Assembly: GCA_038324555.1 (NCBI GenBank)
Contig: JBBQIC010000002.1
Coordinates: 1 to 38,107, forward strand
Source of the DNA: Chloroflexia bacterium
GTDB lineage: Bacteria > Chloroflexota > Chloroflexia > QHBQ01 > JADMIH01
Reading direction: 5' to 3'
Length of the DNA: 38,107 nucleotides
The position numbers were made by a program, and so were the translations under genes. Positions 5,633 to 36,292 of this stretch are shown here, piece after piece. The notes below the pieces were generated by a model that did no database searches, had not been told where the DNA came from, and saw only the letters and a list, made by a program, of their open reading frames with translations. Numbering within the stretch: the first letter of the stretch is position 1; every line of letters starts with the position of its first letter.

Positions 5633-5660
5633 CTCATAACCCCGCGAATCCTGCCAGGTG

Positions 5661-5688
5661 GTAGGGGCGCACGGCCGTGCGCCCCTAC
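5661..5688. repeat. 28-nt perfect palindrome GTAGGGGCGCACGGCCGTGCGCCCCTAC (copy 1), likely bidirectional terminator or REP-like element
   Basis: Perfect palindrome between convergent genes. An identical 28-mer occurs at 17923-17950. The stop codon of the minus-strand GT gene (5685-5687) lies inside it. Confidence 0.8.
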
Positions 5689-6875
5689 GGGTTGCCAGGG
5701 AGCGCAGGCGGACGTTCGATTGTGAGCCTCTCTAACAATGCCACCGGGTATTCCAGTCCCGGCAACTCCTCTATTTCCTTCTGTAGACGTTGCGCGGCTT
5801 GCCGGTAACGCGGCTCCTTCAACACCTCCCATGTGGCGTCTCGGATAGCGTGCGGTAGCCCCGTGTGCCCTTCCGGCTCTATGACGCGCGCCACTCCCAC
5901 CTCCATGCAACGCTGCGCGTTCTCCGGTTGGTCTGCGGCAACTGGAATTATAACCAAAGGAAGGCCAAGGCTTAGGGCGTCCATTATTGTGCCGGAGCCG
6001 CCATGACATAGCGCCAGGTCGCAGTAAGGAAGAAGCAGGTTCTGTGGAATATAGCGTTCGATATGTACATTGGCCGGTCTCTCGCCAAACTCTAGAGGGT
6101 CTCGGTTACGGCCAACAGTAAGTATCAGGTTGATTGGTTCATCTCGAAGGCCTTCGAGTATTGCCGTGAGAATATCGGTCCTTTGGTTGTCGAAAGTGCC
6201 AAGGGTAGCGTATACGGTAGGCTGCTTCTCCATCTCCCCAACCCATTGCGGCAACCCCTCTTCACCCGACTGGCTGAAACCTGTATATCGAAAGAAACGA
6301 GCGGTAAGTGGCACGGGGATCGAAGGGGACCAGAGGCTTGGTGGGCGTGCTGATAGCAATAGGTGTCGGTACAGCAGGTCAGCAGGCTTCTTTGAGGTTA
6401 GTCCGACTGACGCGCACAGACGTGTGAGTGGGGCATCCACCGCCTGCATAAAGAACGTCCATGCAGATGTTATTTGCAGGACAGAGTGAGGAATACCAGC
6501 GCGTTCTGCCGCTATACAACCTGCAAACTCGGTGTTCTCTCGCACCACGACATCAGGACGCCAGTCACGGATAATATTCAGCAGGTCCGGCAGGCTACGC
6601 TCGGCCCTTACACTGGCGAACACGTTCTGTAAAGTGAAATATGTTTGCTCCTGGCGGCTAAGTCCCGCCATTTGCTCCCTGCGCTGTTGTCGTTCTTCCG
6701 GGCTGTCGTTATATCCGGCGGGAAAACAGTGGAAGCCTTTGTCCTCTATGGTTGGACAGAAGCCCGGTGTTGAAGCGAATGCAACCTCATGGCCTGCCTG
6801 TTCCAACGCATGAGCAAGCGGAACAAGGGGGCGCCAATGACTGAAGGTTGGTTGGGTAGTAAACAGCGCCCTCAT
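5685..6875 (-). CDS. family-1 glycosyltransferase (UDP-glycosyltransferase/MGT type)
   Basis: ORF track, 396 aa. The C-terminal donor-binding signature HGGSGTIMDALSLGLPLVIIPVAADQPENA is typical of GT1/GT28-C enzymes. Confidence 0.85.
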   Translation of the reverse strand: MRALFTTQPTFSHWRPLVPLAHALEQAGHEVAFASTPGFCPTIEDKGFHCFPAGYNDSPEERQQRREQMAGLSRQEQTYFTLQNVFASVRAERSLPDLLNIIRDWRPDVVVRENTEFAGCIAAERAGIPHSVLQITSAWTFFMQAVDAPLTRLCASVGLTSKKPADLLYRHLLLSARPPSLWSPSIPVPLTARFFRYTGFSQSGEEGLPQWVGEMEKQPTVYATLGTFDNQRTDILTAILEGLRDEPINLILTVGRNRDPLEFGERPANVHIERYIPQNLLLPYCDLALCHGGSGTIMDALSLGLPLVIIPVAADQPENAQRCMEVGVARVIEPEGHTGLPHAIRDATWEVLKEPRYRQAAQRLQKEIEELPGLEYPVALLERLTIERPPALPGNP

Positions 6876-9081: not shown

Positions 9082-9370
9082 CCGACGCCGTCAGGGTCTA
9101 TTCAAAGTCGCTGGTGTTGGGGTTGAGGAACCAACTAGTACAGCTTGGCTCAAATAAGTCCATAGTATGGAGCCGTGCTGCTGCCTACGAAACCGTTGGT
9201 TTATTTAGACCCTGCTGTACTAGACCTTGTCATTCTGAGCGAAGCGAAGAATCTCTAACCTCAGCACAGTGCCCGACGACCAGATTCTTCGCTTCGCTCA
9301 GAATGACAAGGTCTAGTTGGTTGGTCTTTCGCTTGCATTTCCGACTTTGAATAGACCCTGCCGACGCCGT
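9082..9370. mobile_element. MITE-like non-autonomous element: 269 bp with 19-bp perfect terminal inverted repeats, flanked by a 10-bp direct repeat
   Basis: The TIR cagggtctattcaaagtcg (9092-9110) is the exact reverse complement of cgactttgaatagaccctg (9342-9360). The direct repeat ccgacgccgt flanks it at 9082-9091 and 9361-9370. There is no credible ORF inside. Confidence 0.8.
9221..9315. repeat. GTCATTCTGAGCGAAGCGAAGAATC-family palindrome (34-bp perfect arms, 27-nt spacer) nested inside the MITE
   Basis: Arms at 9221-9254 and 9282-9315 are exact reverse complements. The same family recurs at 12576-12696 and 18480-18510. Confidence 0.85.
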
Positions 9371-9806: not shown

Positions 9807-10742
9807 GTGGCGAAATATCTTGTTACAGGCGCAGCGGGTTTTATCGGATCGAATATAGTCGGGGAATTAGTAAAGCGCGGGGAAGATGTACGCGCTTTTG
9901 ATAACCTGGCGACGGGCAGAATGTCTAATTTGCATAGCGTTATGCCAAGTATTCAGTTCATCAAGGGCGATATAACCGACCCAGGCGCGGTTGGCGAGGC
10001 TGTCATGGGGGTTGATTATGTTTTGCATCAGGCCGCACTGCCCTCGGTTCCACGCTCGGTGCAAGACCCTTTGAGGTCGCATGAAGCTAACGCTACGGGC
10101 ACACTGAATGTGCTACTTGCCGCCCGCGACGCAGGGGTCAAGCGCGTAGTCTACGCATCGTCATCCTCGGTCTACGGCAACAGCCCTACTCTCCCCAAGC
10201 ATGAAGCTATGCCCACCGATCCCCTCTCGCCCTACGCGGTCAACAAACTGGCGGGCGAGCAGTATTGCAAAGTTTTCACGCTGGTCTACGGCTTGCCCAC
10301 GGTAGCGTTACGTTACTTCAACGTCTTTGGGCCGAACCAGGACCCGACCTCACAGTACGCGGCGGTCATCCCTGCGTTTATTACGGCAATGCTCGCAGGC
10401 AAAAGCCCAACTATATACGGAGACGGCCTGCAATCCAGAGATTTTACTTTCATTAGCAATGTAGTGTCGGCAAATCTCTTGGCCTGCCAACGGGAAGAAG
10501 CCAATGGCTCTGCCATGAACATAGCCTGCGGCGACCGTATTTCGCTTCTTGACCTGGTTGCCCAGATAAATAAGCTGCTAGGCACTAACATCGAACCTGT
10601 CTTTGAGCCGCCACGACCCGGCGACGTGAAACATTCAATGGCGGACATCACACAGATTCAGGCTAAACTCGGCTACAAGACAATTGTCAACTTTGACGAA
10701 GGCTTGTCCCGCACTATAGAATACGTGATGCGTGATGCGTGA
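9807..10742 (+). CDS. NAD-dependent nucleotide-sugar epimerase/dehydratase (SDR family, UDP-hexose/UDP-GlcNAc 4-epimerase-like)
   Basis: ORF track with GTG start and RBS gagggg. Rossmann motif TGAAGFIGSN and catalytic YxxxK (SPYAVNKLAGEQY). Confidence 0.9.
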   Translation: MAKYLVTGAAGFIGSNIVGELVKRGEDVRAFDNLATGRMSNLHSVMPSIQFIKGDITDPGAVGEAVMGVDYVLHQAALPSVPRSVQDPLRSHEANATGTLNVLLAARDAGVKRVVYASSSSVYGNSPTLPKHEAMPTDPLSPYAVNKLAGEQYCKVFTLVYGLPTVALRYFNVFGPNQDPTSQYAAVIPAFITAMLAGKSPTIYGDGLQSRDFTFISNVVSANLLACQREEANGSAMNIACGDRISLLDLVAQINKLLGTNIEPVFEPPRPGDVKHSMADITQIQAKLGYKTIVNFDEGLSRTIEYVMRDA

Positions 10743-10790
10743 AACGTGATTATCGTAATTCACGTTTCACGCATCACGCATCACGCATCA
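10725..10790. repeat. hairpin built from tandem heptamers: (GTGATGC)2 GTGAAAC, loop, GTTTCAC (GCATCAC)2 GCATCA
   Basis: Read directly. The left arm overlaps the last codons and the TGA stop (10740-10742) of the epimerase gene. Confidence 0.85.
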
Positions 10791-10830
10791 GGAGGGGTCA
10801 CAAGGGTTGGAGTTTGAAGAATTCAGGATC

Positions 10831-12575: not shown

Positions 12576-12696
12576 TGTGTCATTCTGAGCGGAGCGAAGA
12601 ATCACTCTCCCTGGCAAAGAGTCTAAGGAAAGCCCTGGTGATGACCCTGACCCCTATGACCCCGTAGTGATTCTTCGCTCCGCTCAGAATGACACA
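12576..12696. repeat. GTCATTCTGAGCGGAGCGAAGAATC-family palindrome (30-bp perfect arms, 61-nt spacer)
   Basis: Arms at 12576-12605 and 12667-12696 are exact reverse complements. It starts 12 nt after the metallophosphoesterase stop. Confidence 0.85.
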
Positions 12697-15236: not shown

Positions 15237-15308
15237 GAGTTCAGAGGCCCCGTAGGGGCGAACACAAGGTTCGCCCCTACGGGGCCTCCCCAAGTCTGAA
15301 CTCTTACC
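15232..15308. repeat. 77-nt nested palindromic element (variant of the GTAGGGGCG...CGCCCCTAC family)
   Basis: Outer arms ggtaagagttcaga (15232-15245) and tctgaactcttacc (15295-15308). Inner arms ggccccgtaggggcgaac and gttcgcccctacggggcc. The TAA stop of the DUF1116 gene (15234-15236) lies in the outer arm. Confidence 0.8.
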
Positions 15309-15756: not shown

Positions 15757-15862
15757 TGGTGAATGCTCCTTTTATTAAATGAGATTAGTTGGGTTAGAGT
15801 ATAATGGGGGTCAGTACTCAGCAATTATTATAGCACAGACGTTCTGTTCTGCCAAGGGGCAA

Positions 15863-17902
15863 ATGACCGATTTTATGCACAATTTAATCCCTGTGGCAAG
15901 GGATAGCGGCTCGCCTGACATCGCGTGGCGGCCCACCCCCTTCTACGTTGAACGCAGCCGCTTGCGCCATTTCATGGACCGCCAGGGTATTAGCTCAGTA
16001 GCCGAGTTACTTGCGTGGTCTACAAACGATCCGCCCTGGTTCTGGGACGCGGTAGTCAAGGACCTGGAACTTGAATGGTTCAAGCCATATAATCAGGCGC
16101 TTGACATCTCGAATGGTATTGAGTGGGCGCGCTGGTTCGTAGACGCACAGTACAACTACGTCCATGACGCGGTTGACAAGCACGCCCTTCGGCTGCGCCC
16201 GCAAGCCACAGCCCTCGCCTGGGAAGGCGAAGATGGCGAGGTCCGCACGCTTACTTATTCCCAGCTTTACGCGCAGGTAAACCAGGCGGCGAATGCCCTC
16301 AAATCACTGGGCATAGTCAAGGGAGACCGTATAGGCGTATTCATGCCCATGATACCGGAGACAGCGATTGCCACGCTAGCCATCTCCAAGATCGGGGCCA
16401 TTTTCACGCCTATCTTCTCCGGCTATGGCGGCGCTGCGGTCGCTTCGAGGCTCAGAGACTGCGAAGCCCGACTCCTCATTACAGCAGATGGTTTCTATCG
16501 AGCAGGCAAACAAATAGCGATGAAACAAGTCGCCGACGAAGCCGCGTCAGGTAGTCCCAGCCTGGAACATATGCTGGTGGTTCGCCGCGTGGGGAATGAA
16601 GTACCCTGGACGAGCGGGCGCGACGTATGGTGGCACGAACTGGTCGAATCGCAGAGCCAGGAGTGCCCAACCGAGCACACGGACGCCGAAGACCCCTACA
16701 TGATAATCTACACGTCCGGCACTACGGGTCGCCCAAAAGGGGCGGTACACGTTCACACAGGCTTCCCCATCAAAGCCGCCCAGGAGCTAGCCCACTGCTT
16801 CGACCTGCACGCAGGAGATACGCTCTTCTGGATCAGCGACATCGGCTGGATGATGGGACCATGGGCTATCGCGGGCGCACTGATGCTGGGAGCGACCTGC
16901 TTCCTGTACGAAGGCGCTATCAACCATCCGCAGCCCGACCGCGTGTGGGCATTGGTCGAACGCCACCGCGTCACCCACCTCGGCATATCGCCCACCGCCG
17001 TGCGCTCGCTCATGGGGCAGGGAGGGACGATGGACGATGGACGATGGACGATGGACGATAGTAACCATCGTCCATCGTCCGACCAATGGGTGCGCGCCCA
17101 CGACCTGAGCAGCTTACTCTTCCTGGCGGGCGCGGGCGAACCCTGGAACCCCGGCCCATGGCGCTGGCTGTTTGACGTGATTGGAGAAGGCAGACTTCCG
17201 ATTATCAACTATTCGGGAGGCACGGAGGTATCGGGGGGTATCCTCAGTTGCAACCCTCTCCTACCTCTGAAGCCTTGCGCCTTCAGCGCCCCCGTGCCCG
17301 GCATGGCCGCTGACGTGATAGACGAAGAAGGCAAGCCGGTACGCGGCGCGGTGGGTGAACTAGCCATCAGGCAACCCTGGCCCGGCATGACGAAGGGCTT
17401 CTGGGGTGATCCAGAGCGCTACCTAGACACCTACTGGTCGCGCGTCCCTGGTCTGTGGGTGCATGGCGACTGGGCGCGGGTTGACGAAGACGGCTTCTGG
17501 TATATCCTGGGTCGCTCGGACGACACCATTAAGGTAGCGGGCAAGCGCGTAGGCCCTGCGGAAGTGGAGTCGGCGGCGGTCGCGCACCCTGGAGTAGCGG
17601 AAGCGGCGGCTATCGGCGTACCCGATGCGCTCAAAGGCGAGGCTCTGGTGGTGTTCGTGGCGCTGCGTTCCGGCTACGCGGAAAGCGAAAAGTTGCGAGC
17701 CGAAGTCGAGGCGACAATCATCGCCCATTTGGGAAAATCACTCAAACCGCAAGCGGTAAAGTTCGTAAGCGACCTGCCGCGCACCCGCAACGGCAAAATC
17801 CTCCGCCGCCTGGTGCGAAGCAGCTATCTCGGCGAGCTACCAGGCGACCTGTCGGCCCTGGAAAACCACACAGCCCTTGCGGCTATCGCTGAAGCAAGAT
17901 AA
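15863..17902 (+). CDS. AMP-forming acyl-CoA synthetase (acetate/acetoacetate-CoA ligase family) carrying an in-frame repeat insertion
   Basis: ORF track 15779..17902. I prefer ATG 15863, preceded by aagggg. AMP-binding signature IIYTSGTTGRPKG, the GEPWNP motif and the C-terminal PRTRNGKILRR. Confidence 0.9.
   Translation: MTDFMHNLIPVARDSGSPDIAWRPTPFYVERSRLRHFMDRQGISSVAELLAWSTNDPPWFWDAVVKDLELEWFKPYNQALDISNGIEWARWFVDAQYNYVHDAVDKHALRLRPQATALAWEGEDGEVRTLTYSQLYAQVNQAANALKSLGIVKGDRIGVFMPMIPETAIATLAISKIGAIFTPIFSGYGGAAVASRLRDCEARLLITADGFYRAGKQIAMKQVADEAASGSPSLEHMLVVRRVGNEVPWTSGRDVWWHELVESQSQECPTEHTDAEDPYMIIYTSGTTGRPKGAVHVHTGFPIKAAQELAHCFDLHAGDTLFWISDIGWMMGPWAIAGALMLGATCFLYEGAINHPQPDRVWALVERHRVTHLGISPTAVRSLMGQGGTMDDGRWTMDDSNHRPSSDQWVRAHDLSSLLFLAGAGEPWNPGPWRWLFDVIGEGRLPIINYSGGTEVSGGILSCNPLLPLKPCAFSAPVPGMAADVIDEEGKPVRGAVGELAIRQPWPGMTKGFWGDPERYLDTYWSRVPGLWVHGDWARVDEDGFWYILGRSDDTIKVAGKRVGPAEVESAAVAHPGVAEAAAIGVPDALKGEALVVFVALRSGYAESEKLRAEVEATIIAHLGKSLKPQAVKFVSDLPRTRNGKILRRLVRSSYLGELPGDLSALENHTALAAIAEAR
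17025..17080. repeat. heptamer hairpin (GGACGAT)5-agtaacc-(ATCGTCC)2 inside the acyl-CoA synthetase CDS
   Basis: Read directly. Translated in-frame as (T)MDDGRWTMDDSNHRPSS. Confidence 0.9.
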
Positions 17903-17905: not shown

Positions 17906-17967
17906 AGGAAATAGGAACACCGGTAGGGGCGCACGGCCGTGCGCCCCTACCGGTGTTCCTATTTCCT
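17906..17967. repeat. 62-nt perfect palindrome containing copy 2 of GTAGGGGCGCACGGCCGTGCGCCCCTAC; likely bidirectional terminator
   Basis: The arm aggaaataggaacaccggtaggggcgcacgg and its exact reverse complement. It starts 4 nt after the synthetase stop and lies between convergent genes. Confidence 0.85.
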
Positions 17968-20514: not shown

Positions 20515-21066
20515 CTAATTCTCCCCGAATGTACGTTTGAGCGCCTGATATATTTCCCGTTGAGTAGAACGAGGGGTGCGCCGTATTCTTGCAATTATGT
20601 TAAGCGCGCTTTCACTTGGAGTTTGGATGTTCGATCTGCCTTGATTACACGCCGAGCAAACGGCACGCAAATTCTCTGGATCATCGGTGCCACTCTGGCT
20701 GATAGGGATAATATGATCAACGTGAAGACGTACTTTTCTATTGGGATTGAATGGATCTGGGTCGCCCGCACCCGCACCGCATAACTGACAAGTGAAACCA
20801 TTTCTCTCCAAAATGAGGGTTCGTAGCTGAGGAGAAATGCTCCTCCCTATTGCAGGGAACCTATCAAGGCTTTCAAGAATATACTCACCAGGCTTCAAAT
20901 CATGACGGTCAACGTGAGACTTTATTTGCAGGCCTTCTTCGTCACGCAACTCCCTTATACGTCGTGCATACTCACTGATGCCCCCTACCTCTCTGACCTG
21001 CTGGGTAGTTACGACTTTTCCTACGTTAGCCTCGAAAAAAGACCTAATGCGGTCACGGGCGCTCAT
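20515..21066 (-). CDS. HNH endonuclease, probable restriction partner of the adjacent C5-methyltransferase
   Basis: ORF track, 183 aa. HNH/zinc motif CQLCG...HVDHIIPISQSGTDDPENLRAVCSACN with a wHTH-like N-terminal region. Sits directly downstream of the MTase on the same strand. Confidence 0.8.
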   Translation of the reverse strand: MSARDRIRSFFEANVGKVVTTQQVREVGGISEYARRIRELRDEEGLQIKSHVDRHDLKPGEYILESLDRFPAIGRSISPQLRTLILERNGFTCQLCGAGAGDPDPFNPNRKVRLHVDHIIPISQSGTDDPENLRAVCSACNQGRSNIQTPSESALNIIARIRRTPRSTQREIYQALKRTFGEN

Positions 21067-21122
21067 ATTGCTGTTGCACTCTCTTTAGGCTTATTGCGCT
21101 TCTCTGTTTCTTTGAAAAGGCA

Positions 21123-22286
21123 TTAGGCAACTTGTTGGTTTTCCTTCATTAAAAGAAGTGAGTATACACAACTCGCAATGTGTGAGGCTAATAACGGCGG
21201 GACTGCATTTCCGATCTGTTTAGCGATTTCAATCTTACTACCGCAAAAATGGAATGAGTCCGGAAATGACTGAAGCCTAGCGGCCTCACGATGGGTGATT
21301 GGGCGATGTTGTAATGGATGTAAGTAGCGCCCTTTCTCCGGCTTGAAGAATTCCGTCCTAATAGTAAACGCGGGTCGATCCCACCACAGACGCCCAAATA
21401 GATCCGTTCCTCCGCTCTTCTTGCGAATCCAGCATGAGGGTGTTAGTTCGAGAGCGCGTCTCTGCAAGTCAAAGCGATTCATTCCTTCATCAGGCACAGC
21501 TTTATAACGCTCTAAGCTCATTTGGGTGGGCGACCGACCAAAATGCAAGTCCAACGGAGGCGGTTCCTTACGTATCTCGGTACCAACCGGAGCGGTAAGG
21601 TCCCCGATGGCATCTCGAACCGTACTCCAAGGTTGGAGACGGTGGGGATGTCCATCAGATGTGTCATATACGGTAATGGCTATGCCAAGCTTTGGATTAT
21701 GATGCGTAGCTGGTGGTGGGAATATAGAGGAGGGGTCTGCAAAGCGGCAGCCAATAATAAAAGCTCTCCATCTAATTTGAGGAACGCCAAAATCAGCCGC
21801 GCATAACTTTCCCCATGCCATTTTGAAACCAAGCGTTTTCGCTACTTGGATTATTTCCTTGTGCTCTGGCGAGCCTAGCAACTGAGGCACATTTTCCATT
21901 ATGAATAATTGAGCATCAGCCCGTTCAACCACTTCAAAAAATGGTCGCCACAACTGCTTCCTAGTATCAGTTTCTCGATTCTTATTTAGTAAGCTGAAGC
22001 CCTGGCAAGGTGGTCCCCCAACTACCACATCAGCACGGGGAATGGTGACCACTGGGTTGTTAAGAATGTCTACAATATCTCCATAGGTACAGTGCTCACC
22101 AAAATTGCTGTTATATGTGGCGACAGCATATTTGTTGAAATCGTTTGCCCAAACAGGTTCAAAATCATAACCGAATTCTCCTGTGAAGCCCAAAGTTAAT
22201 CCGCCTGCCCCGGAGAACAGGTCTATTAGGCGGAAACGATGATACCTATTGCGGTGTGGAGCTTCTAATTGAAGGGAATTGAGCAT
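21123..22286 (-). CDS. DNA (cytosine-5)-methyltransferase
   Basis: ORF track 21123..22421. I prefer ATG at 22286 (aagga upstream), which removes the overlap with the CoxL-like gene. Motif I DLFSGAGGLTLGF, motif IV GGPPCQGFS, motif VI MENV, motif X QIGNAVPPLLA. Confidence 0.9.
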   Translation of the reverse strand: MLNSLQLEAPHRNRYHRFRLIDLFSGAGGLTLGFTGEFGYDFEPVWANDFNKYAVATYNSNFGEHCTYGDIVDILNNPVVTIPRADVVVGGPPCQGFSLLNKNRETDTRKQLWRPFFEVVERADAQLFIMENVPQLLGSPEHKEIIQVAKTLGFKMAWGKLCAADFGVPQIRWRAFIIGCRFADPSSIFPPPATHHNPKLGIAITVYDTSDGHPHRLQPWSTVRDAIGDLTAPVGTEIRKEPPPLDLHFGRSPTQMSLERYKAVPDEGMNRFDLQRRALELTPSCWIRKKSGGTDLFGRLWWDRPAFTIRTEFFKPEKGRYLHPLQHRPITHREAARLQSFPDSFHFCGSKIEIAKQIGNAVPPLLASHIASCVYSLLLMKENQQVA

Positions 22287-22381
22287 TAGTAATCCTTGCT
22301 TGGGAGCACTTGGCGCATAGTTTTCTGTATAATACCACAATCGTAGCTCGGAGGAAGTGTTATTCTCCAAAGCCACTGGGG

Positions 22382-24778
22382 TTAGGGATTGATTGACCCA
22401 CTCCCCTCCACCAACTCCCACAACCTGCTCGGACTCAACGGTATCTCCGTTATCTCGAACCCCTCTATACCCAGCGCGTTTTCCAGCGCCTGGACGAACA
22501 ACGGCCCAACAGGTATCGCCCCGGCCTCGCCTGCGCCTTTGACGCCGATGGGGTTGAGGGGAGAGGGGGTCTCCTCGTGGCCTACTTCTACGCGCGGCAC
22601 GTCGGTGGAGGTAGGCAAGAGGTAGTCCATGAAGGAGGCGTTGAGTAGTTGGCCGCCCTCGTCGTAGATTAGCTGCTCGTAGAAGGCGTTGCCGATGCCC
22701 TGGGCCACGCCGCCATGCACCTGCCCTTCGAGGATTAGAGGGTTTATCACCCTGCCGCAGTCGTGGACCACCACGTACCGCAATATCTTCACCTTGTAAG
22801 TTTCGGTGTCAACTTCGACTATCATGGCGTGCGCACCTGCTGCGGTGGCTCCCATTGGCGGGCCGAAGTAGGCGGTGGCTTCCAGGCCGGGTTCGGTTCC
22901 GGGTTGGACGGCCCCACGCAGGGGATTGGCTTTGGCTGCCAGGTCTGCCAGGCTGACGCGGGCGTTGGGCGCGCCTCGCACCTGGGCGTAGCCACCCACT
23001 AGCTCGATGTCCTGCTCAGAGACCTCCATCGCGTCGGCGGCGAGCTTTAGCGCCTTCTCGCGCACCCTTATTGCCGCCTCGTGAACGGCGGAGCCTGCCA
23101 CCGTCGCGCCTCGGCTGGCGAACGTCCCTGTGCCCCAGTTGAATTGCCCTGTGTCGCCCGTGGAGACGAGTATTTCTTCTACACGCACGCCCAACACTTC
23201 GGCTGCTATCTGCGCGAAGGTGGTGTAGTGCCCCTGTCCTTGCGTGCCCACGCCCGTGACGACAGTGACCTTGCCGCTAGGCTCGATCTGTATGCGCGCG
23301 CCTTCGTAGGGGCCGATGCCGGTGCCTTCGACGTACATGACGAGGCCGATACCCACCCGCTTGCGCGGCGACGATGGACGATGGACGATGGACGATGTGT
23401 TTTCGCTTTTGGGACTATCGTCCATCGTCCATCGTCCATCGTCCTTATGAAAGTCGTCCCACCCTATCATCTTCTTGGCTTTGTCGAGGATTGGCTCGTA
23501 GTTGCCGCTGTCGTAGGTGAGGTGGGTGAAGTCCTGGAAGATAATCTGGTTGTTGTATGGGAACTGGTCGGGCGGGATGAGGTTGCGGCGGCGCAGTTCT
23601 AGTGGGTCTATGCCCAGTTCTTTGGCGGCAAAGTCGAGTAGGCGTTCAATGACGAATACGCCGTGCTGCCGTCCCGCGCCCCTGTAGGGGGTGACGATAA
23701 TCTTGCTGGTGAACACCGCCTTGAACTCGGTGTAGTAGTTGGGGATGACGTATGGGCCAAGCAGTGTGCATTGAGTATTGAGGGGCACGGTCAGGCCGTA
23801 GGGGTCGTATGCGCCGTTGTCGTGCAGGAAAACGTCGCTTACGCCAAGGATTTTGCCGTCTCGCGTCAGGGCTATCTCCGATTGGTGGATTTGGCCGCGC
23901 TCATGGGTCATGGCTGTGAAGTTTTCGAGGCGGTCTTCGATCCACTTGACGGGACGACCCAGGCGCATCGCCGCCCAGGGCACAAGCGTCTCCTCTGGAT
24001 AGAACATCATGATCTTCGGCCCGAAGCCTCCACCCACAAACGGCGCTATCACGCGCACCTGCCGCTCCGATAGGTCGAGCATGGCGGCAAGACCGTTGCG
24101 GATCGGGATGGGGGCCTGCGTTGAGTCCCACACGGTGAGGTGGTGGGCCAGGTGATCGAATTGCGCCACCACGCCCCGTGTCTCCATGGGCGCTGCTGTG
24201 CCCCGGTCGTAGAGGAGGCGGCGCGAAATCACCAGGTCGGCGTGGGCGCGGGCGGAGTCGTAATTGCCCTTGGTCTGGATGACGTGGGCGGCCATATTGG
24301 AGCCTACGTCTTCGTGTACCAGAGTGGCGCTCTCTTCCAGGGCGGCTTCGAGGTCCACTATAGCGGGAAGCGGCTCGTAATCAACCATGATGGCATCGGC
24401 GGCGTCCTCGGCCAGGTAGCGGTTCTCGGCGATGACCATGACTACAGGTTCGCCAACGTAGCGCACCTTGTCCTTGGCAAGCTGCCCGGCGGTGCGCTGG
24501 TTGAAGACGATATGCTGGGTGGGTGGAGGTGGAACAAGTAACGGCGATGGCTGCCAGTAGTCGCCCAGGTCCTTTGCGATATAGACCGCGATTACGCCCG
24601 GCATAGCTTTCGCGGCCTCAACGTCTATACCCAGTATCAGGGCATGGGCGTAGTCGCTGCGCTTGAAAGCTACGTGCGCCATATGGGGCAAATGAACATC
24701 ATCTACGAACTGAGCGCGGCCCATCAGCAATCGTGGGTCTTCGTTTCGCTTGACGCGAGCGCCGAACATTCCGGTCAT
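22382..24778 (-). CDS. molybdopterin-dependent hydroxylase large subunit (form-II CoxL-like, xanthine dehydrogenase family) carrying an in-frame repeat insertion
   Basis: ORF track, 798 aa. The N-terminus RVKRNEDPRLLMGRAQFVDD is typical. The active-site loop PYRGAGR is the form-II type, not the form-I AYRCSFR. Confidence 0.9.
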   Translation of the reverse strand: MTGMFGARVKRNEDPRLLMGRAQFVDDVHLPHMAHVAFKRSDYAHALILGIDVEAAKAMPGVIAVYIAKDLGDYWQPSPLLVPPPPTQHIVFNQRTAGQLAKDKVRYVGEPVVMVIAENRYLAEDAADAIMVDYEPLPAIVDLEAALEESATLVHEDVGSNMAAHVIQTKGNYDSARAHADLVISRRLLYDRGTAAPMETRGVVAQFDHLAHHLTVWDSTQAPIPIRNGLAAMLDLSERQVRVIAPFVGGGFGPKIMMFYPEETLVPWAAMRLGRPVKWIEDRLENFTAMTHERGQIHQSEIALTRDGKILGVSDVFLHDNGAYDPYGLTVPLNTQCTLLGPYVIPNYYTEFKAVFTSKIIVTPYRGAGRQHGVFVIERLLDFAAKELGIDPLELRRRNLIPPDQFPYNNQIIFQDFTHLTYDSGNYEPILDKAKKMIGWDDFHKDDGRWTMDDSPKSENTSSIVHRPSSPRKRVGIGLVMYVEGTGIGPYEGARIQIEPSGKVTVVTGVGTQGQGHYTTFAQIAAEVLGVRVEEILVSTGDTGQFNWGTGTFASRGATVAGSAVHEAAIRVREKALKLAADAMEVSEQDIELVGGYAQVRGAPNARVSLADLAAKANPLRGAVQPGTEPGLEATAYFGPPMGATAAGAHAMIVEVDTETYKVKILRYVVVHDCGRVINPLILEGQVHGGVAQGIGNAFYEQLIYDEGGQLLNASFMDYLLPTSTDVPRVEVGHEETPSPLNPIGVKGAGEAGAIPVGPLFVQALENALGIEGFEITEIPLSPSRLWELVEGSGSINP
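23370..23444. repeat. heptamer hairpin GACGAT(GGACGAT)3, 20-nt loop, (ATCGTCC)4 inside the CoxL-like CDS
   Basis: Read directly. Translated from the minus strand as DDGRWTMDDSPKSENTSSIVHRPSS. Confidence 0.9.
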
Positions 24779-24798: not shown

Positions 24799-24862
24799 GG
24801 GTGAGGGAATAGGATTTAAGAACTACTCCCTCACCCTACTCCCTCACCCTACTCCCTCACCC
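24799..24862. repeat. 13-mer repeat element: one inverted copy (gggtgagggaata) plus three tandem direct copies of tactccctcaccc
   Basis: Read directly. Tandem copies are at 24824-24836, 24837-24849 and 24850-24862. It lies in the 90-nt spacer between the CoxS-like stop and the CoxL-like start. Confidence 0.85.
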
Positions 24863-24868
24863 TATTTC

Positions 24869-25372
24869 CTACAATACTCCCCCCACCTCCGTGCTCTCCT
24901 GCCCCCGCATCTTTTCTGAGGCCAGCTTCACCGCGTCAACGATGTTCTGGTATCCGGTGCATCGGCAAAGGTTGCCGGAGATGGCCTGGCGTATCTCTTC
25001 CTCTGTGGGGTCGAGGTTTTCTTTGAGGAAGGGCAGGATCGTCATCAGGAAGCCTGGGGTGCAGAAGCCGCATTGCAGACCGTGGGCTTCCCAGAATGCT
25101 TGTTGGAGCGGATGCAGGTTGGCGGGATCGTTGGACAGCCCCTCCACGGTCATGATTTCGTGCTCGTTGGCCTGGACCGCGAACGTCAGGCAGGAGCGCA
25201 CGGGCACACCGTCGAGCAGTATCGTACAAGCCCCGCACACGCCGTGCTCGCAGCCTACGTGCGTGCCCGTCAACTCTAGCTCGTGGCGCAGGAAGTCGCT
25301 GAGGAGCAGGCGAGGCTCCACGGTGCGGGTGTGGGTCTTGTTGTTGACGATTAGGGTGATTTCATGTTGCAT
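24869..25372 (-). CDS. (2Fe-2S)-binding small subunit of the molybdenum hydroxylase (CoxS-like)
   Basis: ORF track, 167 aa. Cys clusters CEHGVCGACTILLDG and CGFCTPG ... CRCTGY. Confidence 0.9.
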   Translation of the reverse strand: MQHEITLIVNNKTHTRTVEPRLLLSDFLRHELELTGTHVGCEHGVCGACTILLDGVPVRSCLTFAVQANEHEIMTVEGLSNDPANLHPLQQAFWEAHGLQCGFCTPGFLMTILPFLKENLDPTEEEIRQAISGNLCRCTGYQNIVDAVKLASEKMRGQESTEVGGVL

Positions 25373-25495
25373 AGAGTTTCTCCTCGCAGATGGACGAACC
25401 GCAAAGACGCAAAGAGCGCAAAGTTACGCAAAGAACAATCAAATGATCATACCTAGACTTGTCGCCTGTTGTACAGTCTATGTTGAGGCTCAGTC

Positions 25496-29636: not shown

Positions 29637-30506
29637 CTAATGTGCCTTCTCTACCGCTCGCGCCAACGTCCTGCGCGCCAACACCTTCACCAAATGCCTG
29701 CGATAAGCAGCTGTCGCGTGTATATCGGATGGCGGGTCAATCTCACTATCAATGGCTTCTGAGGCAGCGCGGATAACATCCTCGGTGGGCTGCGTGCCGC
29801 GTAATACGTCGCTGGCAGCAAGAACTTGGACAGGGCCGTCGCCGATAGAGAAGAAGACCAGCTTGCTTTCAGCAACCGTACCATCGGGCGCGAGCGTGAC
29901 GACCGCCGCCGCGCCTGCGAGGGCGTAATCACCGTGGCGGCGGGCTACCTCCTCGAAGGCCGTGCCGGTTCGCTCAGGTATGGGCGGGATGATTACTTCC
30001 GCCAGTATCTCCTCCGGCTCAAGCGCGGTAGTGAATATGCCCAGGAAGAACTCGGAGGCGGGGATGAGGCGCTGGCCCTGGCTGCTTTGCGCCTGCATCT
30101 GCGCGTCCAGCGCCAGCATTAGCGAGGGCAGTTCCGCCGCAGGATCGGCGTGGGCCAGGGAGCCGCCTATTGTGCCTCGATTGCGAATCTGAGGGTGGGC
30201 TATGTCGGGCATCGCCTCGGTGATAAGGGGAGCGCGGCTCGCGACGAGCGTGCTGCGCTCTACTGTGCGGTGTCGGGTCATAGCGCGTATACGCAGCCCG
30301 CCCTCTCCATCGGCATGGACGCCGAACAGGTCGGGAATACCGTTCAAGTCTACCAGTATAGAAGGCTGGGCAAGTCGAAAGTTCATGCTGGGCACAAGGC
30401 TCTGTCCGCCTGCCAGCAGCTTAGCCTCGTCCCCGTACTCGGCAAGCAAGCTTAGAGCTTCGTCCCGTGTCACCGGAGCGTAATATTCAAAAAGAGACGG
30501 TTTCAT
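29637..30506 (-). CDS. FAD-binding medium subunit of the molybdenum hydroxylase (CoxM-like)
   Basis: ORF track, 289 aa. Motifs LLAGGQSLVPSMNFR and RNRGTIGGSLAHADPAAELP are typical of the FAD_binding_5/CO_deh_flav_C family. Confidence 0.9.
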   Translation of the reverse strand: MKPSLFEYYAPVTRDEALSLLAEYGDEAKLLAGGQSLVPSMNFRLAQPSILVDLNGIPDLFGVHADGEGGLRIRAMTRHRTVERSTLVASRAPLITEAMPDIAHPQIRNRGTIGGSLAHADPAAELPSLMLALDAQMQAQSSQGQRLIPASEFFLGIFTTALEPEEILAEVIIPPIPERTGTAFEEVARRHGDYALAGAAAVVTLAPDGTVAESKLVFFSIGDGPVQVLAASDVLRGTQPTEDVIRAASEAIDSEIDPPSDIHATAAYRRHLVKVLARRTLARAVEKAH

Positions 30507-30523: not shown

Positions 30524-30686
30524 AGAAACCGCGAAGACGCAAAAACGCTAAGTTTACCTTAAGAATATTGCACCGCAGAGGCGCAGAGAACGCAGAGGAC
30601 CAATAATAAAGGTCCTCTGCGTTCTCTGCGCCTCTGCGGTGAATAAACATAGCAATTCTTTGCGTCTTTGCGTCTTCGCGGTTTCT
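30524..30686. repeat. nested double hairpin: 20-bp perfect outer stem enclosing a 31-bp perfect inner stem
   Basis: Outer arms agaaaccgcgaagacgcaaa (30524-30543) and tttgcgtcttcgcggtttct (30667-30686). Inner arms at 30571-30601 and 30611-30641 have a CGCAGAG core repeated three times per arm, with loop aataataaa. Confidence 0.9.
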
Positions 30687-31592: not shown

Positions 31593-31613
31593 GAAACGTG
31601 AAACGTGAAACGT
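31593..31613. repeat. (GAAACGT)3 tandem heptamers, with one extra copy at 31569-31575
   Basis: Read directly. The heptamer is the same one (GTGAAAC register) used in the 10725-10790 hairpin. Confidence 0.8.
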
Positions 31614-31694
31614 AAAAGGAAGTATTGCCTTTCTGTAGCCCTGGGTGCTATACTGAGGTCGGTATTCGTGCGCCGTATAATGTCTGTGGTCAAC

Positions 31695-31857: not shown

Positions 31858-31933
31858 GCCGAGGTAGCTCAGTTGGTAGAGCATGCGACTGAAAATCGCA
31901 GGGTCATCAGTTCAAGTCTGATCCTCGGCACCA
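31858..31933 (+). tRNA. tRNA-Phe (anticodon GAA), CCA encoded
   Basis: Hand-folded. Acceptor GCCGAGG/CCTCGGC, D arm GCTC-AGTTGGTA-GAGC, anticodon arm TGCGA-CTGAAAA-TCGCA, T arm ATCAG-TTCAAGT-CTGAT, then ACCA. Confidence 0.9.
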
Positions 31934-31987
31934 AAATTAGGCACAAAAATAGCTCAGATGTTCCGTATTCCGAGCTATTTTATCATT

Positions 31988-32036
31988 ATGTAGCCAAATA
32001 TGTAGCCAAACTTATGCTATGGCTACATTGGCTACA
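31988..32036. promoter_or_regulatory. array of four TGTAGCCAA-type sites (two direct, two inverted): candidate recombinase or repressor binding sites
   Basis: Sites are atgtagccaa (31988-31997), atatgtagccaa (31998-32009), tggctaca (32020-32027) and ttggctaca (32028-32036). Confidence 0.4.
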
Positions 32037-32220
32037 GTATATTTATCGCCTTTATCACCAGTGGTTTGCGATGGGACAGGCCACACGCGGCCACGCATAT
32101 GCAACTTGTTGGTGTTAGCAATTTCTAACCCACACTGTTCACGGGGATTGACGGATGTGGTATTATTAGGTATGGACATGGAGCTACAACCTCCTTGTTC
32201 TAAGGCGGTCCGGTGATAGA

Positions 32221-32294
32221 AACACCGAGCCGGATTCGAACCGACGATAGTCGCTTTGCAAGGGGACCGCGTTGGACCACTTCGCCACCTGTGC
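32221..32294 (-). tRNA. tRNA-Cys(GCA)-like sequence with a defective anticodon stem; possible pseudogene or recombination remnant
   Basis: Canonical 74-nt length on the minus strand. Good T arm (GTCGG-TTCGAAT-CCGGC), a D arm typical of tRNA-Cys (GCGA-AGTGGTCCA-ACGC) and loop TTGCAAA. The anticodon stem pairs at only 2 of 5 positions, and the acceptor stem has 4 Watson-Crick pairs, 2 GU pairs and 1 mismatch. Confidence 0.4.
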
Positions 32295-32360
32295 CTGGAT
32301 GGAAGATAGGGTAGCCTCAGTTTCCAGCGAAAGCTACCCTATTAATTATCAATAACAAAG

Positions 32361-32843
32361 TTAGGGCTTCCCCTCCGAGTTCGGTCCATCGCCCTGACCT
32401 TGCTGTATTACGTTGAACATTGGACTAGGAACCACACGAAACGTTGTACGGCCCTTTTCTGCAAGTTCATGCGTTTTCTCATCTGGCAATAGAACCTTAA
32501 CAACGTAAGTGCCAAGATTTTCAAACTGCATGGGTGTCGGCACGACTAGTTGAACACGTTGTGATTGACCGGGTGCTGTACCAGGAGGTCTACCCATTTC
32601 AAAGCCGCCTTCTACTTTCACAAGCTGCTTGCCGTCCTGGTCATCTATATATAGTTCAACCTTATGGGGTTCGTTGGTCTCGGTCCAAGCGACCTCAATA
32701 CCAACAGCGATTGCAATCATTTGTGCGGCAGGAAGAGTATTGACAAGGACTGAATCCCAACCACCCCCCAAAAGGTAGAGTTTGCCCCCTACGATTTGGG
32801 CCGCATCTGCCAAAATTAACCAATCGAGTTTCACTATTGACAA
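32361..32843 (-). CDS. hypothetical protein (possibly DUF6941-like)
   Basis: ORF track, 160 aa. Clean ORF followed by hairpin atagggtagc/gctaccctat (32306-32342). The domain guess rests only on the N-terminal pattern LILADAAQIVGGKLYLLGGGWD. Confidence 0.6.
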   Translation of the reverse strand: MSIVKLDWLILADAAQIVGGKLYLLGGGWDSVLVNTLPAAQMIAIAVGIEVAWTETNEPHKVELYIDDQDGKQLVKVEGGFEMGRPPGTAPGQSQRVQLVVPTPMQFENLGTYVVKVLLPDEKTHELAEKGRTTFRVVPSPMFNVIQQGQGDGPNSEGKP

Positions 32844-32964
32844 CCTCCGATTTGTGTAGTATAATAATTAGACTTATGTAGTTTACTAAGTCAACGGCTG
32901 TAGCCCCAATTGTAGTTGAAACTGTAGTGCAAGACTATACGTATTGTAATATATTGCTTTAATT

Positions 32965-33264
32965 TTGTCAAGACCACGAGTTAGATTTACGTATGACGAC
33001 GCCAACGAAGCTAAATTTGCTTCGCATGGTTTGACTGCCGACCAAGTTGACGATGTATTAGATGGGCAGTTTACAATTATGTCGAACAGGAAAAATCGAA
33101 CAGGCACGCATTTAGTAATCGGGCGCGACAGCAGTGGCATATGTCTGACCATTCCGATTGTACCAACACAAGAGCCGGGGTTATGGCGACCAATCACGGC
33201 TTGGCGCTGTAAAAGCTCAGAGCAAGCAAAACTCAGCAAAGCAAAGAAGGGAGTAACAGTGTGA
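32965..33264 (+). CDS. brnT: BrnT-like (DUF497) type II toxin
   Basis: ORF track, 99 aa, TTG start. FTYDDANEAKFASHGLT resembles the DUF497 opening F-W-D-x-x-K-x-x-x-N-x-x-K-H-G, and the C-terminal WRPITAWRCKSSEQAKL resembles the (I)ISARKAT...E tail. It shares a 4-nt overlap (GTGA) with the next ORF. Confidence 0.6.
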   Translation: MSRPRVRFTYDDANEAKFASHGLTADQVDDVLDGQFTIMSNRKNRTGTHLVIGRDSSGICLTIPIVPTQEPGLWRPITAWRCKSSEQAKLSKAKKGVTV

Positions 33265-33650: not shown

Positions 33651-33655
33651 TCGTC

Positions 33656-33708
33656 AAGTGCAATAAGTAAAGACTGGCGTATTACGCCAGTCTTTACTTA
33701 TTGCACTT
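33656..33708. terminator. bidirectional terminator hairpin between brnA and the integrase gene
   Basis: A roughly 25-bp perfect stem, agtgcaataagtaaagactggcgta/tacgccagtctttacttattgcact, followed by ttttcggg. Confidence 0.7.
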
Positions 33709-33733
33709 TTCGGGCAAAATGGGCAAAGCCCCC

Positions 33734-35419: not shown

Positions 35420-35447
35420 TTCCTGAGTCTCCTTCTGCCTTACGGAT

Positions 35448-36286: not shown

Positions 36287-36292
36287 GAGGGC

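What the first reader, a model, noticed from the sequence alone, without database searches (positions are those of the whole stretch)
17025..17080. Hairpin of tandem heptamers inserted IN-FRAME in the acyl-CoA synthetase gene and translated as DDGRWTMDDSNHRPSS
(GGACGAT)5-agtaacc-(ATCGTCC)2 lies between the conserved ISPTAVRSLM segment and the HDLSSL...GAGEPWNP motif. In characterised acetyl-CoA synthetases, as I recall E. coli Acs, that connector is only about 7 residues. Here it is about 25, so roughly 57 nt appear to be extra and the frame is preserved. GGACGAT repeats are stop-free in all three frames (G-R-W-T-M-D-D), and so is ATCGTCC (I-V-H-R-P-S-S). The loop contains TAG and TAA in the other frames (gATAGTAAcc), so only the observed frame is open. 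This resembles the in-frame palindromic elements of Rickettsia (RPEs). Its heptamer construction resembles cyanobacterial STRR repeats, but here the repeats form a hairpin inside an essential-type enzyme.
Basis: partly seen in the sequence, partly recalled or inferred. Interest (0 to 1): 0.75.

Follow-up and report, generated by a model that had tools for sequence, protein, structure and literature searches.

The report
Translated heptamer-repeat hairpins inside enzyme genes
A 57-base palindrome built from tandem 7-base repeats sits in frame inside an intact acetyl-CoA-synthetase gene of an uncultured Chloroflexia bacterium, with a sister copy in a CO-dehydrogenase-type gene 6 kb away; it belongs to a widespread, barely described family of repeat hairpins that bacteria tolerate as extra loops in working proteins.

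Summary
(GGACGAT)5-agtaa-CC(ATCGTCC)2 at 17025-17080 lies inside an intact acetyl-CoA-synthetase-family gene. Twenty orthologues and two solved Acs structures lack exactly these 19 codons (57 nt, 17024-17080). A second copy of the same hairpin (23370-23444) is in frame inside the CoxL-type gene. That gene is under strong purifying selection (dN/dS 0.05). The same CoxL loop carries GGACGAT, GGACGAC or GGACGAA palindromes in other orthologues, and both arms always match. Scans found (GGACGAT)n arrays in at least 110 genome loci, mostly Chloroflexota. There they also lie in frame inside EPSP synthase, ValRS, RecJ and a helicase. When two arrays are paired, the order is always GGACGAT arm first (32:0). 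Longer copies share a conserved mosaic interior. Period 7 dominates tandem repeats in these genomes. I found no target duplication and no transposase. Control heptamers show GGACGAT is not unique. Best reading: a selfish or neutral heptamer-palindrome element, tolerated because it is stop-free, a multiple of three and in a variable loop. It works like Rickettsia RPEs and is built like STRR/heptamer repeats. How it spreads is unknown. One reader detail is wrong: five of six frames are open, not one. This is a new variant of a known kind.

The parts
15863..17902 (+). Host gene: acetyl-CoA-synthetase-family enzyme (ACAS_N + AMP-binding + AMP-binding_C), 679 aa, intact
   Evidence: Best PDB match is 8rpk acetate-CoA ligase, E = 1e-150.
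17024..17080 (+). The 57-nt insertion (19 codons, GTMDDGRWTMDDSNHRPSS). Its boundary is ambiguous by 1 nt (G).
   Evidence: Absent from 20 orthologues and from solved Acs structures. It is identical in a second assembly, L001.
17025..17059 (+). 5' arm: (GGACGAT)5
17060..17064 (+). Spacer AGTAA. It holds TAG/TAA in one of the alternative frames.
17065..17080 (+). 3' arm: CC(ATCGTCC)2. It pairs with any of four registers of the 5' arm (16 bp).
   Evidence: (I21-I24).
22382..24778 (-). Second host gene: CoxL / xanthine-dehydrogenase-family molybdopterin subunit, 798 aa
   Evidence: dN/dS is 0.05 against the sister genome.
23370..23444 (.). Second copy of the same hairpin: (GGACGAT)~4, a 20-nt spacer, (ATCGTCC)4, with a 27-bp perfect stem. 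In gene sense it is read as DDGRWTMDDSPKSENTSSIVHRPSS.
   Evidence: -60.7 kcal/mol, z = -10. The site is empty in P0124, P0126, P0130 and more distant orthologues.
10721..10790 (.). Related hairpin built of another heptamer (CGTGATG/TCACGCA arms, 29 nt, 10-nt loop). It lies between the epimerase and methyltransferase genes. The epimerase stop codon lies in the 5' arm.
30524..30686 (.). Nested hairpins of 8-mers: an inner one at 30571-30641 (CGCAGAGG/CCTCTGCG, 31-bp perfect stem) and outer arms of CGCAAAGA-type units. They lie between the cyclase and coxM genes.
25400..25434 (.). Unpaired array of (CGCAAAGA)4 upstream of coxS. The same unit occurs in the interior of the mosaic elements in other Chloroflexia.
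31593..31617 (.). Unpaired array (GAAACGT)3.6
   Evidence: The same unit is among the commonest heptamers in related loci.

Best explanation
The 57 nt are a copy of a short palindromic repeat element whose arms are tandem heptamers: a 5' arm (GGACGAT)n and a 3' arm (ATCGTCC)m. The element entered an intact acetyl-CoA-synthetase-family gene.

It persists for three reasons. Its length is a multiple of three. The unit has no stop codon in any frame. It landed in a short, variable connector, between the helix ending ...RSLMGQG and the D-x-W-V...HDLSSL segment, which corresponds to D369/K370 of S. enterica Acs. The ribosome therefore reads it as a 19-residue, probably disordered, loop.

The element belongs to a large family of hairpins made of tandem 7- or 8-mers, and of 150-230-nt mosaic elements, that populate Chloroflexota and some other genomes. 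Most copies are intergenic. Copies are seen inside genes only where the protein tolerates them, which is survivorship. The short genic copies look like centre-deleted derivatives of the mosaic elements.

Shown here: the insertion, the hairpin, the family, the fixed arm order, purifying selection on the CoxL host gene, and the absence of a target duplication.

Inferred: that the insert is translated, that it is neutral or selfish, and the route of spread. The route is not a DDE-type cut-and-paste. It may use single-stranded hairpin (HUH-type) transposition or repair-templated copying.
For: Insertion. 20 of 20 orthologues and the PDB Acs sequences lack exactly 19 aa. The DNA junctions are clean.

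Not an artefact. The identical element is present in an independent assembly, GCA_038239605.1.

Family. A second in-frame copy lies in CoxL 6 kb away.

Arm order. An inverted partner lies downstream of the GGACGAT array in 32 cases and upstream in 0. Allowing one mismatch the counts are 44 and 1.

Mosaic interior. A conserved interior aligns across 8 loci from 4 MAGs. Both window copies begin their spacer with AGT, as the mosaic copies L004 and L037 do.

Period 7. Period 7 dominates perfect tandem repeats: 218 arrays against 2-9 for periods 5, 6, 8 and 9.

Tolerance in real genes. In-frame arrays occur in EPSP synthase, ValRS, RecJ, a DEAD/DSHCT helicase, a MalT-type regulator and others. The EPSP synthase insert is a 15-aa gap against PDB 5xwb.

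Host genes functional. CoxL has dN/dS 0.05 with the insert retained. The ACS motifs are all conserved.

Loop. The inserts are the low-confidence coil segments of the AF2 models: ACS residues 387-404 and CoxL residues 446-470.

Recurrent colonisation of one permissive loop. CoxL orthologues carry arrays of GGACGAT, GGACGAC, GGACGAA and unrelated units such as AAATCCA at the same site. Distant orthologues are empty there.
Against: No mobilising enzyme and no target-site duplication were found, so mobility is inferred only from the copy distribution.

Spacers differ between copies. Descent from one master element is therefore not proven.

The CoxL element changed less than its flanks between sister genomes: 1 difference in 75 nt against 5 in the next 36 nt. 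In addition, its arms stay complementary while the unit differs among orthologues. Both facts could mean selection on the hairpin itself rather than neutrality.

Both AF2 models are poor overall (pLDDT 66 and 53). No transcript or peptide data exist.
Confidence: 0.68

Rival explanations
1. The hairpin itself is under selection inside the ORF. It would act as an RNA- or DNA-level signal, for example an mRNA processing or stability site, a translational pause or a protein-binding site. The peptide would be a by-product.
For: In CoxL orthologues the unit differs (GGACGAT, GGACGAC, GGACGAA) but both arms always change together. The element shows 1 difference in 75 nt against 5 in the adjacent 36 nt between sister genomes whose dS is 0.28. 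Stems are very stable, -36 to -72 kcal/mol. There is a general strand rule. The 5' arm is G- or purine-rich in GGACGAT hairpins (32:0). In other heptamer hairpins G>C holds 18:3. In all perfect hairpins the 5' arm is purine-rich 136:38. This points to a constraint acting on a single strand.
Against: Presence is patchy. The ACS insert exists only in two near-identical alleles, and 20 orthologues do without it. The CoxL arms are decayed in L192 and L195, and the site is empty in a nested clade. Concerted evolution by slippage or arm-to-arm conversion would also keep the arms matched and the repeats uniform without any selection.
Confidence: 0.15
2. The element arose in place. Replication slippage amplified a local heptamer, and a strand or template switch then copied the array in inverted orientation. 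No insertion from elsewhere was involved.
For: Period-7 slippage-type arrays are generic in these genomes and even in viral contigs for arbitrary units. Control units gave 10, 6 and 0 loci against 14 for GGACGAT. The native CoxL sequence has one GGACGAC (the W-D-D codons) 9 nt upstream of the array. The two arms have unequal copy numbers (5 and 2).
Against: The orthologous ACS site (GGnGAnCAnTGG) contains no GGACGAT seed, and the whole 57 nt is new. The same unit occurs in two genes of one window and repeatedly in related MAGs with a shared mosaic interior. The strict arm order is not predicted by symmetric template switching.
Confidence: 0.1
3. It is a phase-variation (contingency) switch. 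Gain or loss of one 7-nt unit would shift the frame and reversibly switch ACS or CoxL off.
For: A unit length that is not a multiple of 3 gives frameshifts on slippage. Heptamer SSRs drive phase variation in Haemophilus (literature surfaced).
Against: Copy numbers are identical in the sister genome for both elements: 5+2 for ACS and 4+4 for CoxL. This holds despite dS of 0.28 in CoxL, and only a point substitution is seen. Both alleles are in frame.
Confidence: 0.04
4. It is an assembly artefact, or the gene is a pseudogene.
For: Repeats and palindromes can be mis-assembled. The source looks like a metagenome-type assembly.
Against: The same sequence is present in two independent assemblies. 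The ORF is intact with all family motifs. Comparable in-frame inserts are seen in dozens of genes in many assemblies, including long-read MAG contigs. CoxL is under purifying selection.
Confidence: 0.03

Closest known systems
Rickettsia palindromic elements (RPEs)
   Same: Both are dispersed palindromic repeats found in frame inside otherwise intact protein-coding genes. Both add an extra peptide segment at tolerated sites, and neither has a known transposase. The reviews surfaced (PMC10969869, PMC3184786) treat RPEs and in-frame MITEs as a known phenomenon.
   Different: From my memory of the RPE literature, RPEs are about 100-150 bp with family consensus sequences and are restricted to Rickettsia. 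Here the elements are 57-75 nt. Their arms are perfect tandem heptamers with variable copy number and variable spacers, and the host is Chloroflexia.
STRR sequences of heterocystous cyanobacteria and heptamer 'long simple sequence repeats' (Mrazek 2007)
   Same: Both are tandemly amplified heptanucleotides, dispersed in many copies, with period 7 specifically over-represented. PMC4692102 and PMC4679880 summarise that literature. Intragenic heptamer arrays are reported in Nostoc and Xanthomonas. STRRs were reported inside the RNase P RNA gene; I have the title only, from the reference list.
   Different: The units differ (CCCCAGT and others against GGACGAT) and so does the phylum. The described STRR/LSSR arrays are direct arrays. 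A palindromic pairing of two arrays with a fixed arm order, translated inside enzymes, was not found in the searchable literature.
MITEs inserted in frame (Coxiella QMITEs, Neisseria Correia elements)
   Same: Both are small non-autonomous inverted-repeat elements that can sit inside ORFs and add peptide segments (PMC5896051 and PMC10969869).
   Different: MITEs have defined terminal inverted repeats, target-site duplications and a parent IS. Here there is no duplication longer than 1 nt, and no IS or transposase was seen.
REP/BIME and REPIN elements
   Same: Both are families of short hairpin-forming repeats, combined with other short motifs into mosaic units. They are mostly intergenic and lie between co-oriented genes. 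The window hairpins at 10721-10790 and 30524-30686 fit that picture.
   Different: REPs are single imperfect palindromes of 20-40 nt, extragenic by definition, and linked to RAYT genes (PMC3116915). Here the arms are tandem 7- or 8-mers and copies occur inside genes. A RAYT link is untested.
TAACTGA direct repeats of Beggiatoaceae, Cyanobacteria and Bacteroidetes (PMC4679880)
   Same: Both are heptamer arrays shared across distant phyla. Both often lie just upstream of start codons, and a few lie inside ORFs at the protein periphery. Here many (GGACGAT)n arrays also abut ORF starts.
   Different: TAACTGA has stop codons in the forward frames and is almost never palindromically paired (one inverted case). 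GGACGAT is stop-free and about 40% of its arrays are paired.

Membership tests
Rickettsia palindromic elements (RPE) | Palindromic, predicted to fold as a hairpin | tested here: met
   16-bp and 27-bp perfect stems, z = -5.3 and -10.
Rickettsia palindromic elements (RPE) | Inserted in frame in ORFs that remain intact | tested here: met
   ACS and CoxL alignments. CoxL dN/dS is 0.05.
Rickettsia palindromic elements (RPE) | About 100-150-bp element matching an RPE family consensus, in Rickettsia (definition from memory) | tested here: not met
   The elements are 57 and 75 nt, with arms that are pure heptamer arrays, and the host is Chloroflexia. No RPE consensus was on hand for a direct sequence comparison.
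STRR / heptamer LSSR | Tandemly amplified heptanucleotide, longer than chance | tested here: met
   TRF gives 5.0 copies at 100%. Shuffles expect 0.25 against 11 observed.
STRR / heptamer LSSR | Many dispersed copies per genome | tested here: inconclusive
   There are two copies of this unit plus four arrays of other units in 38 kb. Related MAGs have 5-8 loci each among the 110 returned. The source genome itself is not available.
STRR (sensu Mazel 1990) | Heterocystous cyanobacteria; units CCCCAGT, TTGGTCA, CAACAGT (from memory) | tested here: not met
   The unit is GGACGAT. The orthologues are from Chloroflexia.
MITE | Terminal inverted repeats | tested here: met
   The arms are inverted copies, but they are arrays of variable length.
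MITE | Target-site duplication flanking the element | tested here: not met
   ACS junction: GGA|G...CC|GAC against the empty sites GGnGAn, so at most 1 nt is shared. There are no consistent duplications at 8 mosaic copies.
MITE | Parent IS or transposase with the same ends | not testable with these tools
   No transposase domain was found among the 20 window ORFs scanned against Pfam; the only recombinase is a phage-type integrase at 33734-34927. The rest of the genome is unavailable.
REP / REPIN | Extragenic single imperfect palindrome of 20-40 nt; RAYT gene in the genome | tested here: not met
   The element is intragenic and its arms are tandem arrays. RAYT presence could not be tested.
Phase-variable contingency SSR | Repeat number varies between close strains, switching the frame | tested here: not met
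   Copy numbers are identical in the window and in GCA_038239605.1 for both elements.
Intein / intron (removed insert) | Splicing motifs, with removal from protein or RNA | not testable with these tools
   A 19-aa insert is far too short for an intein. There is no Rfam match in the window apart from tRNAs. Removal would need transcript or peptide data.

The most novel reading that the evidence does not exclude
Tandem-heptamer palindromes would be a distinct, undescribed class of self-propagating element or repair product. They have a strict single-strand polarity: the G- or purine-rich arm is always 5'. They colonise permissive loops of housekeeping proteins across several phyla. Their two arms are kept complementary by an active process while the unit drifts (GGACGAT, GGACGAC, GGACGAA). 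That process could be arm-to-arm conversion or selection on an RNA or DNA hairpin. If so, a dedicated mechanism, either hairpin-specific HUH-type mobilisation or 3'-end repeat addition at breaks, remains to be discovered.
Probability: 0.2. Interest if true: 0.85.

Novelty: new variant of a known kind. Interest (0 to 1): 0.6.

Why it matters
In-frame palindromic repeats in proteins are textbook only for Rickettsia. Heptamer repeats have been noted statistically since 2007 but hardly studied; PMC4692102 states that no detailed literature exists.

This finding links the two. Free-living soil Chloroflexota, and also Acidobacteriota and Bacteroidota, carry hairpins made of tandem heptamers. These hairpins are read through as loops in core enzymes: Acs, CoxL, AroA, ValRS and RecJ.

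That has three consequences:
- It affects gene calling and protein-family alignments. Many 'hypothetical proteins' are just translated arrays.
- It offers natural loop-insertion tolerance maps for these enzymes.
- It poses a clear mechanistic question: what creates the fixed arm polarity and keeps the arms matched.

Tried and rejected
1. GGACGAT as a special, enzyme-templated (telomerase-like) unit. Three composition-matched, stop-free control heptamers gave 10, 6 and 0 loci in viral contigs against 14 for GGACGAT, and GGACGAA gave 3. The unit is common but not unique, so its cross-phylum presence needs no special template.

2. dN/dS on ACS as a test of function after the insertion. It is uninformative. 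The window and L001 are identical from nt 476 to 2003 of the gene, which points to recent recombination or transfer.

3. Peptide census with a synthetic DDGRWTM/SSIVHRP query. It returned only short 'hypothetical' ORFs over arrays, not the large host proteins.

4. Metagenome scan for CoxL relatives. It brought mostly 65-70%-identity orthologues, useful only to show that the empty site is ancestral.

5. AF2 models. Both are of low overall confidence, so only the local 'insert is a low-confidence coil' statement is used. I could not compute solvent exposure.

6. Rfam. Only tRNAs matched in the window.

7. Literature. No bacterial paper contains the repeat. Elhai 2008 and Vioque 1997 are not held, so statements about them rest on titles and memory.

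8. Target-site motif or duplication. None was seen at 17 left flanks.

9. Phase variation. Rejected because copy number is stable.
Full report
**1. The observation**

Positions 17025-17059 are five perfect GGACGAT units. They are followed by agtaacc and two ATCGTCC units that end at 17080. TRF reports 5.0 copies at 100%. The double unit occurs 11 times in the window against 0.25 expected from dinucleotide shuffles.

In register, the 3' arm CCATCGTCCATCGTCC (17065-17080) can pair with four registers of the 5' arm, giving a 16-bp stem. The RNA fold is -36.3 kcal/mol, z = -5.3.

The element lies in ORF 15779..17902. Its real start is probably 15863, the start used by the 99%-identical database protein P0001.

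One detail of the finding is wrong. TAG and TAA in the spacer are adjacent codons of one frame. Five of the six frames run open through the element, not only the used one.

**2. It is an insertion**

The alignment used 20 orthologues of 65-79% identity, all from Chloroflexia or Chloroflexota MAGs. Every one goes ...SLMG(Q/A)G-(D/E)xWV... and lacks exactly GTMDDGRWTMDDSNHRPSS. Solved acetyl-CoA synthetases (8rpk, S. enterica 2p2b) show the same 19-residue gap, between D369 and K370 of the Salmonella enzyme.

Orthologue DNA (L231-L233) gives the empty site ATGGG.CAGGG.GA.CA.TGGGT. The 57 nt (17024-17080) are therefore wholly new sequence. The junction is ambiguous by a single G, there is no target-site duplication, and there is no local GGACGAT seed.

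All core motifs of the enzyme family are conserved. In the otherwise mediocre AF2 model the insert is the low-confidence segment 387-404, between helices 377-385 and 406-411.

**3. It is not an artefact, but the ACS allele is young**

An independent assembly (GCA_038239605.1, locus L001) carries the identical element. However, the two ACS genes are identical from nt 476 to 2003. Neighbouring genes are only about 90% identical, and CoxL has dS = 0.28. That stretch was therefore recently exchanged, and it gives no independent evidence of long retention.

**4. A second copy in the same window**

At 23370-23444 the same unit forms a 27-bp perfect hairpin with a 20-nt spacer (-60.7 kcal/mol, z = -10). 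It lies inside the 798-aa CoxL / xanthine-dehydrogenase-family gene on the minus strand. There it is read as DDGRWTMDDSPKSENTSSIVHRPSS.

The sister genome has the same element with one substitution. The gene as a whole has dN = 0.014 and dS = 0.28, so omega is 0.05. A gene carrying the insert is thus under strong purifying selection.

**5. The CoxL loop is colonised again and again**

Between the conserved MIGWD(D/E)F and GIGLVMYVEG segments, orthologues fall into two groups. Some have a short native connector (P0124, P0126, P0130, P0150, P0167, P0187, and distant metagenome relatives). Others carry inserts of 15-40 residues.

At DNA level the inserts are again palindromes of heptamer arrays, but the unit differs:
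- GGACGAT/ATCGTCC in the window, L197 and L192.
- GGACGAC/GTCGTCC in L193, with a (TCACGCA)4 array nested in its spacer.
- GGACGAA/TTCGTCC in L194 and L195.

Still other orthologues carry peptides of unrelated units, for example KSKIQNP from AAATCCA. The arms are decayed in L192 and L195.

On a rough NJ tree, empty-site sequences form the outgroup plus one nested clade. This fits repeated gain, loss and turnover at a permissive loop. The window and L194 share the same right junction (..CGTC|GCCGC.CAAGCGG). An old insertion whose two arms evolved in concert is therefore also possible.

**6. The family outside the window**

I estimate the chance expectation for a 21-mer in 596 Gb at about 0.3. 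About 60% of the loci are Chloroflexota, often several per MAG. The rest are Acidobacteriota, Bacteroidota, Planctomycetota, Lentisphaerota/Verrucomicrobiota, Armatimonadota and a few others.

In these 818 kb, perfect tandem repeats of at least 3 copies number 218 for period 7. Of these, 89 are of units other than GGACGAT. Periods 5, 6, 8 and 9 give 2, 3, 9 and 3. Recurrent units (GACGATA, CTCAGTC, GAAACGT, CGTGATG, AATTACG) include those of the window's other arrays and hairpins at 10721-10790, 25400-25434, 30524-30686 and 31593-31617.

**7. Fixed arm order**

Of 129 GGACGAT arrays, 32 have an exact 14-nt inverted partner within 200 nt downstream and none has one upstream. With one mismatch the counts are 44 and 1; with two mismatches, 56 and 3.

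The rule is general. In hairpins of other heptamers the 5' arm has G>C in 18 cases against 3. Among all perfect hairpins in the loci the 5' arm is purine-rich in 136 against 38. The few paired control arrays in viral contigs follow the same order.

A palindrome reads the same on both strands. Such a polarity therefore points to a constraint or mechanism acting on single strands (RNA or ssDNA), or to common descent of the copies. I could not decide between these.

**8. Mosaic elements**

In four Chloroflexia MAGs, eight copies have 110-140-nt spacers that align well. The shared order is:
(GGACGAT)n - (TA)GGAGACGAAAACG - about four CAAAGACG/CCAAGACG octamers - ATTAGGATTGTT - about 20 variable nt - CTA(CTCAGTC)n - ATCACTCC - (ATCGTCC)m.

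Short spacers often keep the beginning of this interior, such as AGGAGA... or AGACGAT. Both window copies start with AGT, as L004 and L037 do. I therefore read the short genic hairpins as centre-deleted derivatives. This is inference. No flanking duplications were seen at these copies either.

**9. Translated copies in other real genes**

Stop-free frames longer than 400 aa span arrays or hairpins well inside Pfam-confirmed genes:
- a DEAD/DSHCT helicase (L080)
- a MalT/LuxR regulator (L096)
- a histidine kinase (L086)
- EPSP synthase (L071)
- an AAA16-TPR cyclase protein (L107)
- an FGE-sulfatase protein (L075)
- RecJ (L077)
- valyl-tRNA synthetase (L046)
- a MiaB-like radical-SAM enzyme (L111)

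For EPSP synthase the repeat-encoded GRQTTDHRPSSIVHR is a 15-residue gap against PDB 5xwb. Many other arrays abut ORF starts or ends. One example in the window is the 10721-10790 hairpin, whose 5' arm supplies the last codons and the stop codon of the epimerase gene.

**10. What it most likely is**

It is a member of a family of tandem-heptamer palindromes that behave as selfish or neutral DNA. Genic copies are visible only where three conditions hold: a length of 3n, no stop codons, and a variable loop.

Translation of the insert is the parsimonious inference. If the segment were removed from the RNA, frame preservation and stop-freeness would not be needed, yet they hold in every genic case seen.

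How copies reach new sites is unknown. There is no duplication. No transposase domain was found in the window ORFs scanned (the only recombinase is a phage-type integrase at 33734-34927), and there is no Rfam family beyond tRNAs.

**11. Rival readings**

- Selection on the hairpin itself. This is suggested by the matching arms across unit variants, the low divergence of the element (1 in 75 nt against 5 in the next 36 nt) and the strand polarity. The patchy distribution and decayed copies argue against a necessary function.
- In-situ slippage plus template switching. This is unlikely for ACS, where no seed exists.
- Phase variation. This is contradicted by identical copy numbers in the sister genome.
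- Artefact or pseudogene. This is excluded for practical purposes.
- A unit-specific templating enzyme. This idea lost support when control heptamers proved about as frequent in viral contigs.

**12. Comparison with what is known**

It works like Rickettsia RPEs and in-frame MITEs (reviews). It is built like cyanobacterial STRRs and the heptamer LSSRs noted by Mrazek and colleagues. It is organised in mosaics reminiscent of BIMEs.

It fails defining features of each family: the RPE length, consensus and host; the STRR units and host; the MITE target duplication; and the REP extragenic single palindrome.

Searches of the held literature found no description of palindromic heptamer arrays in Chloroflexota, nor of this repeat in bacteria. 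PMC4692102 explicitly says that heptamer repeats lack detailed study.

I therefore rate it a new variant of a known kind, with moderate to high interest.

Noticed in passing
window 9219-9317 and 12576-12696: Two long perfect palindromes (36- and 31-nt arms) share the core GTCATTCTGAGCG(A/G)AGCGAAGAATC. A similar arm occurs in L039 3002-3082. This is a separate dispersed palindrome family.
   Followed up: no
window 17906-17967; also 5641-5708 and 15244-15288: A 62-nt perfect palindrome with no loop starts 4 nt after the ACS stop codon. It shares the core GTAGGGGCG(C/A)AC with two other window palindromes and with hairpins in L018, L028, L052, L105 and L111. It is probably a terminator-like repeat family.
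   Followed up: no
window 16338-17865 (ACS gene nt 476-2003) compared with L001: This stretch is 100% identical between the window and GCA_038239605.1. Flanking genes are about 90% identical and CoxL has dS of 0.28. This suggests recent homologous exchange of the insert-bearing ACS allele.
   Followed up: partly
window 24823-24881; L001 9462-9529: Tandem 13-mers (CTACTCCCTCACC, 3.2 copies) lie between coxL and coxS. The complementary unit forms a 30-nt-arm hairpin in the sister genome, in an ~650-nt longer spacer than the window has between the AllG-like and glyoxalase genes.
   Followed up: no
window 20515-22421: HNH endonuclease and C5 cytosine methylase genes lie directly downstream of coxL. 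The methylase ORF overlaps the coxL 3' end by 40 nt. The cox genes themselves are scattered: coxM at 29637-30506, coxS at 24869-25372 and coxL at 22382-24778, with MFS and DUF4179 genes in between.
   Followed up: no
window 31858-37987: Two tRNA genes (31858-31930 +, 32221-32294 -) are followed by a phage-type integrase (33734-34927) and an N6/N4 DNA methylase (36770-37987), in a lower-GC stretch (0.48-0.52). This may be an integrated element.
   Followed up: no
window 10721-10806: The epimerase ORF (9807-10742) ends inside the 5' arm of a heptamer hairpin, so its C-terminus YVMRDA and its stop codon are repeat-encoded. An AGGAGG Shine-Dalgarno sequence for the next gene follows the 3' arm immediately.
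   Followed up: partly
L193 (CoxL of GCA_035274425.1), insert region: A (TCACGCA)4 array, the same unit as window 10767-10790, is nested in the spacer of a (GGACGAC)4/(GTCGTCC)4 palindrome. It is translated in frame as SHASRITHHA inside CoxL.
   Followed up: partly
loci L002-L111 (818 kb): 78% of all perfect hairpins (arms of 12 nt or more, loops of 3-60 nt) have a purine-rich 5' arm, and G>C holds 124 to 42. This is a general strand asymmetry of palindromes in these genomes.
   Followed up: partly
protein database hits P0241-P0360: Dozens of annotated 35-110-aa 'hypothetical proteins' from Chloroflexia, Haliscomenobacteraceae, Chitinophagales, Pyrinomonadaceae and others are simply translations of GGACGAT/ATCGTCC arrays. 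Some are tagged PF12779.
   Followed up: no
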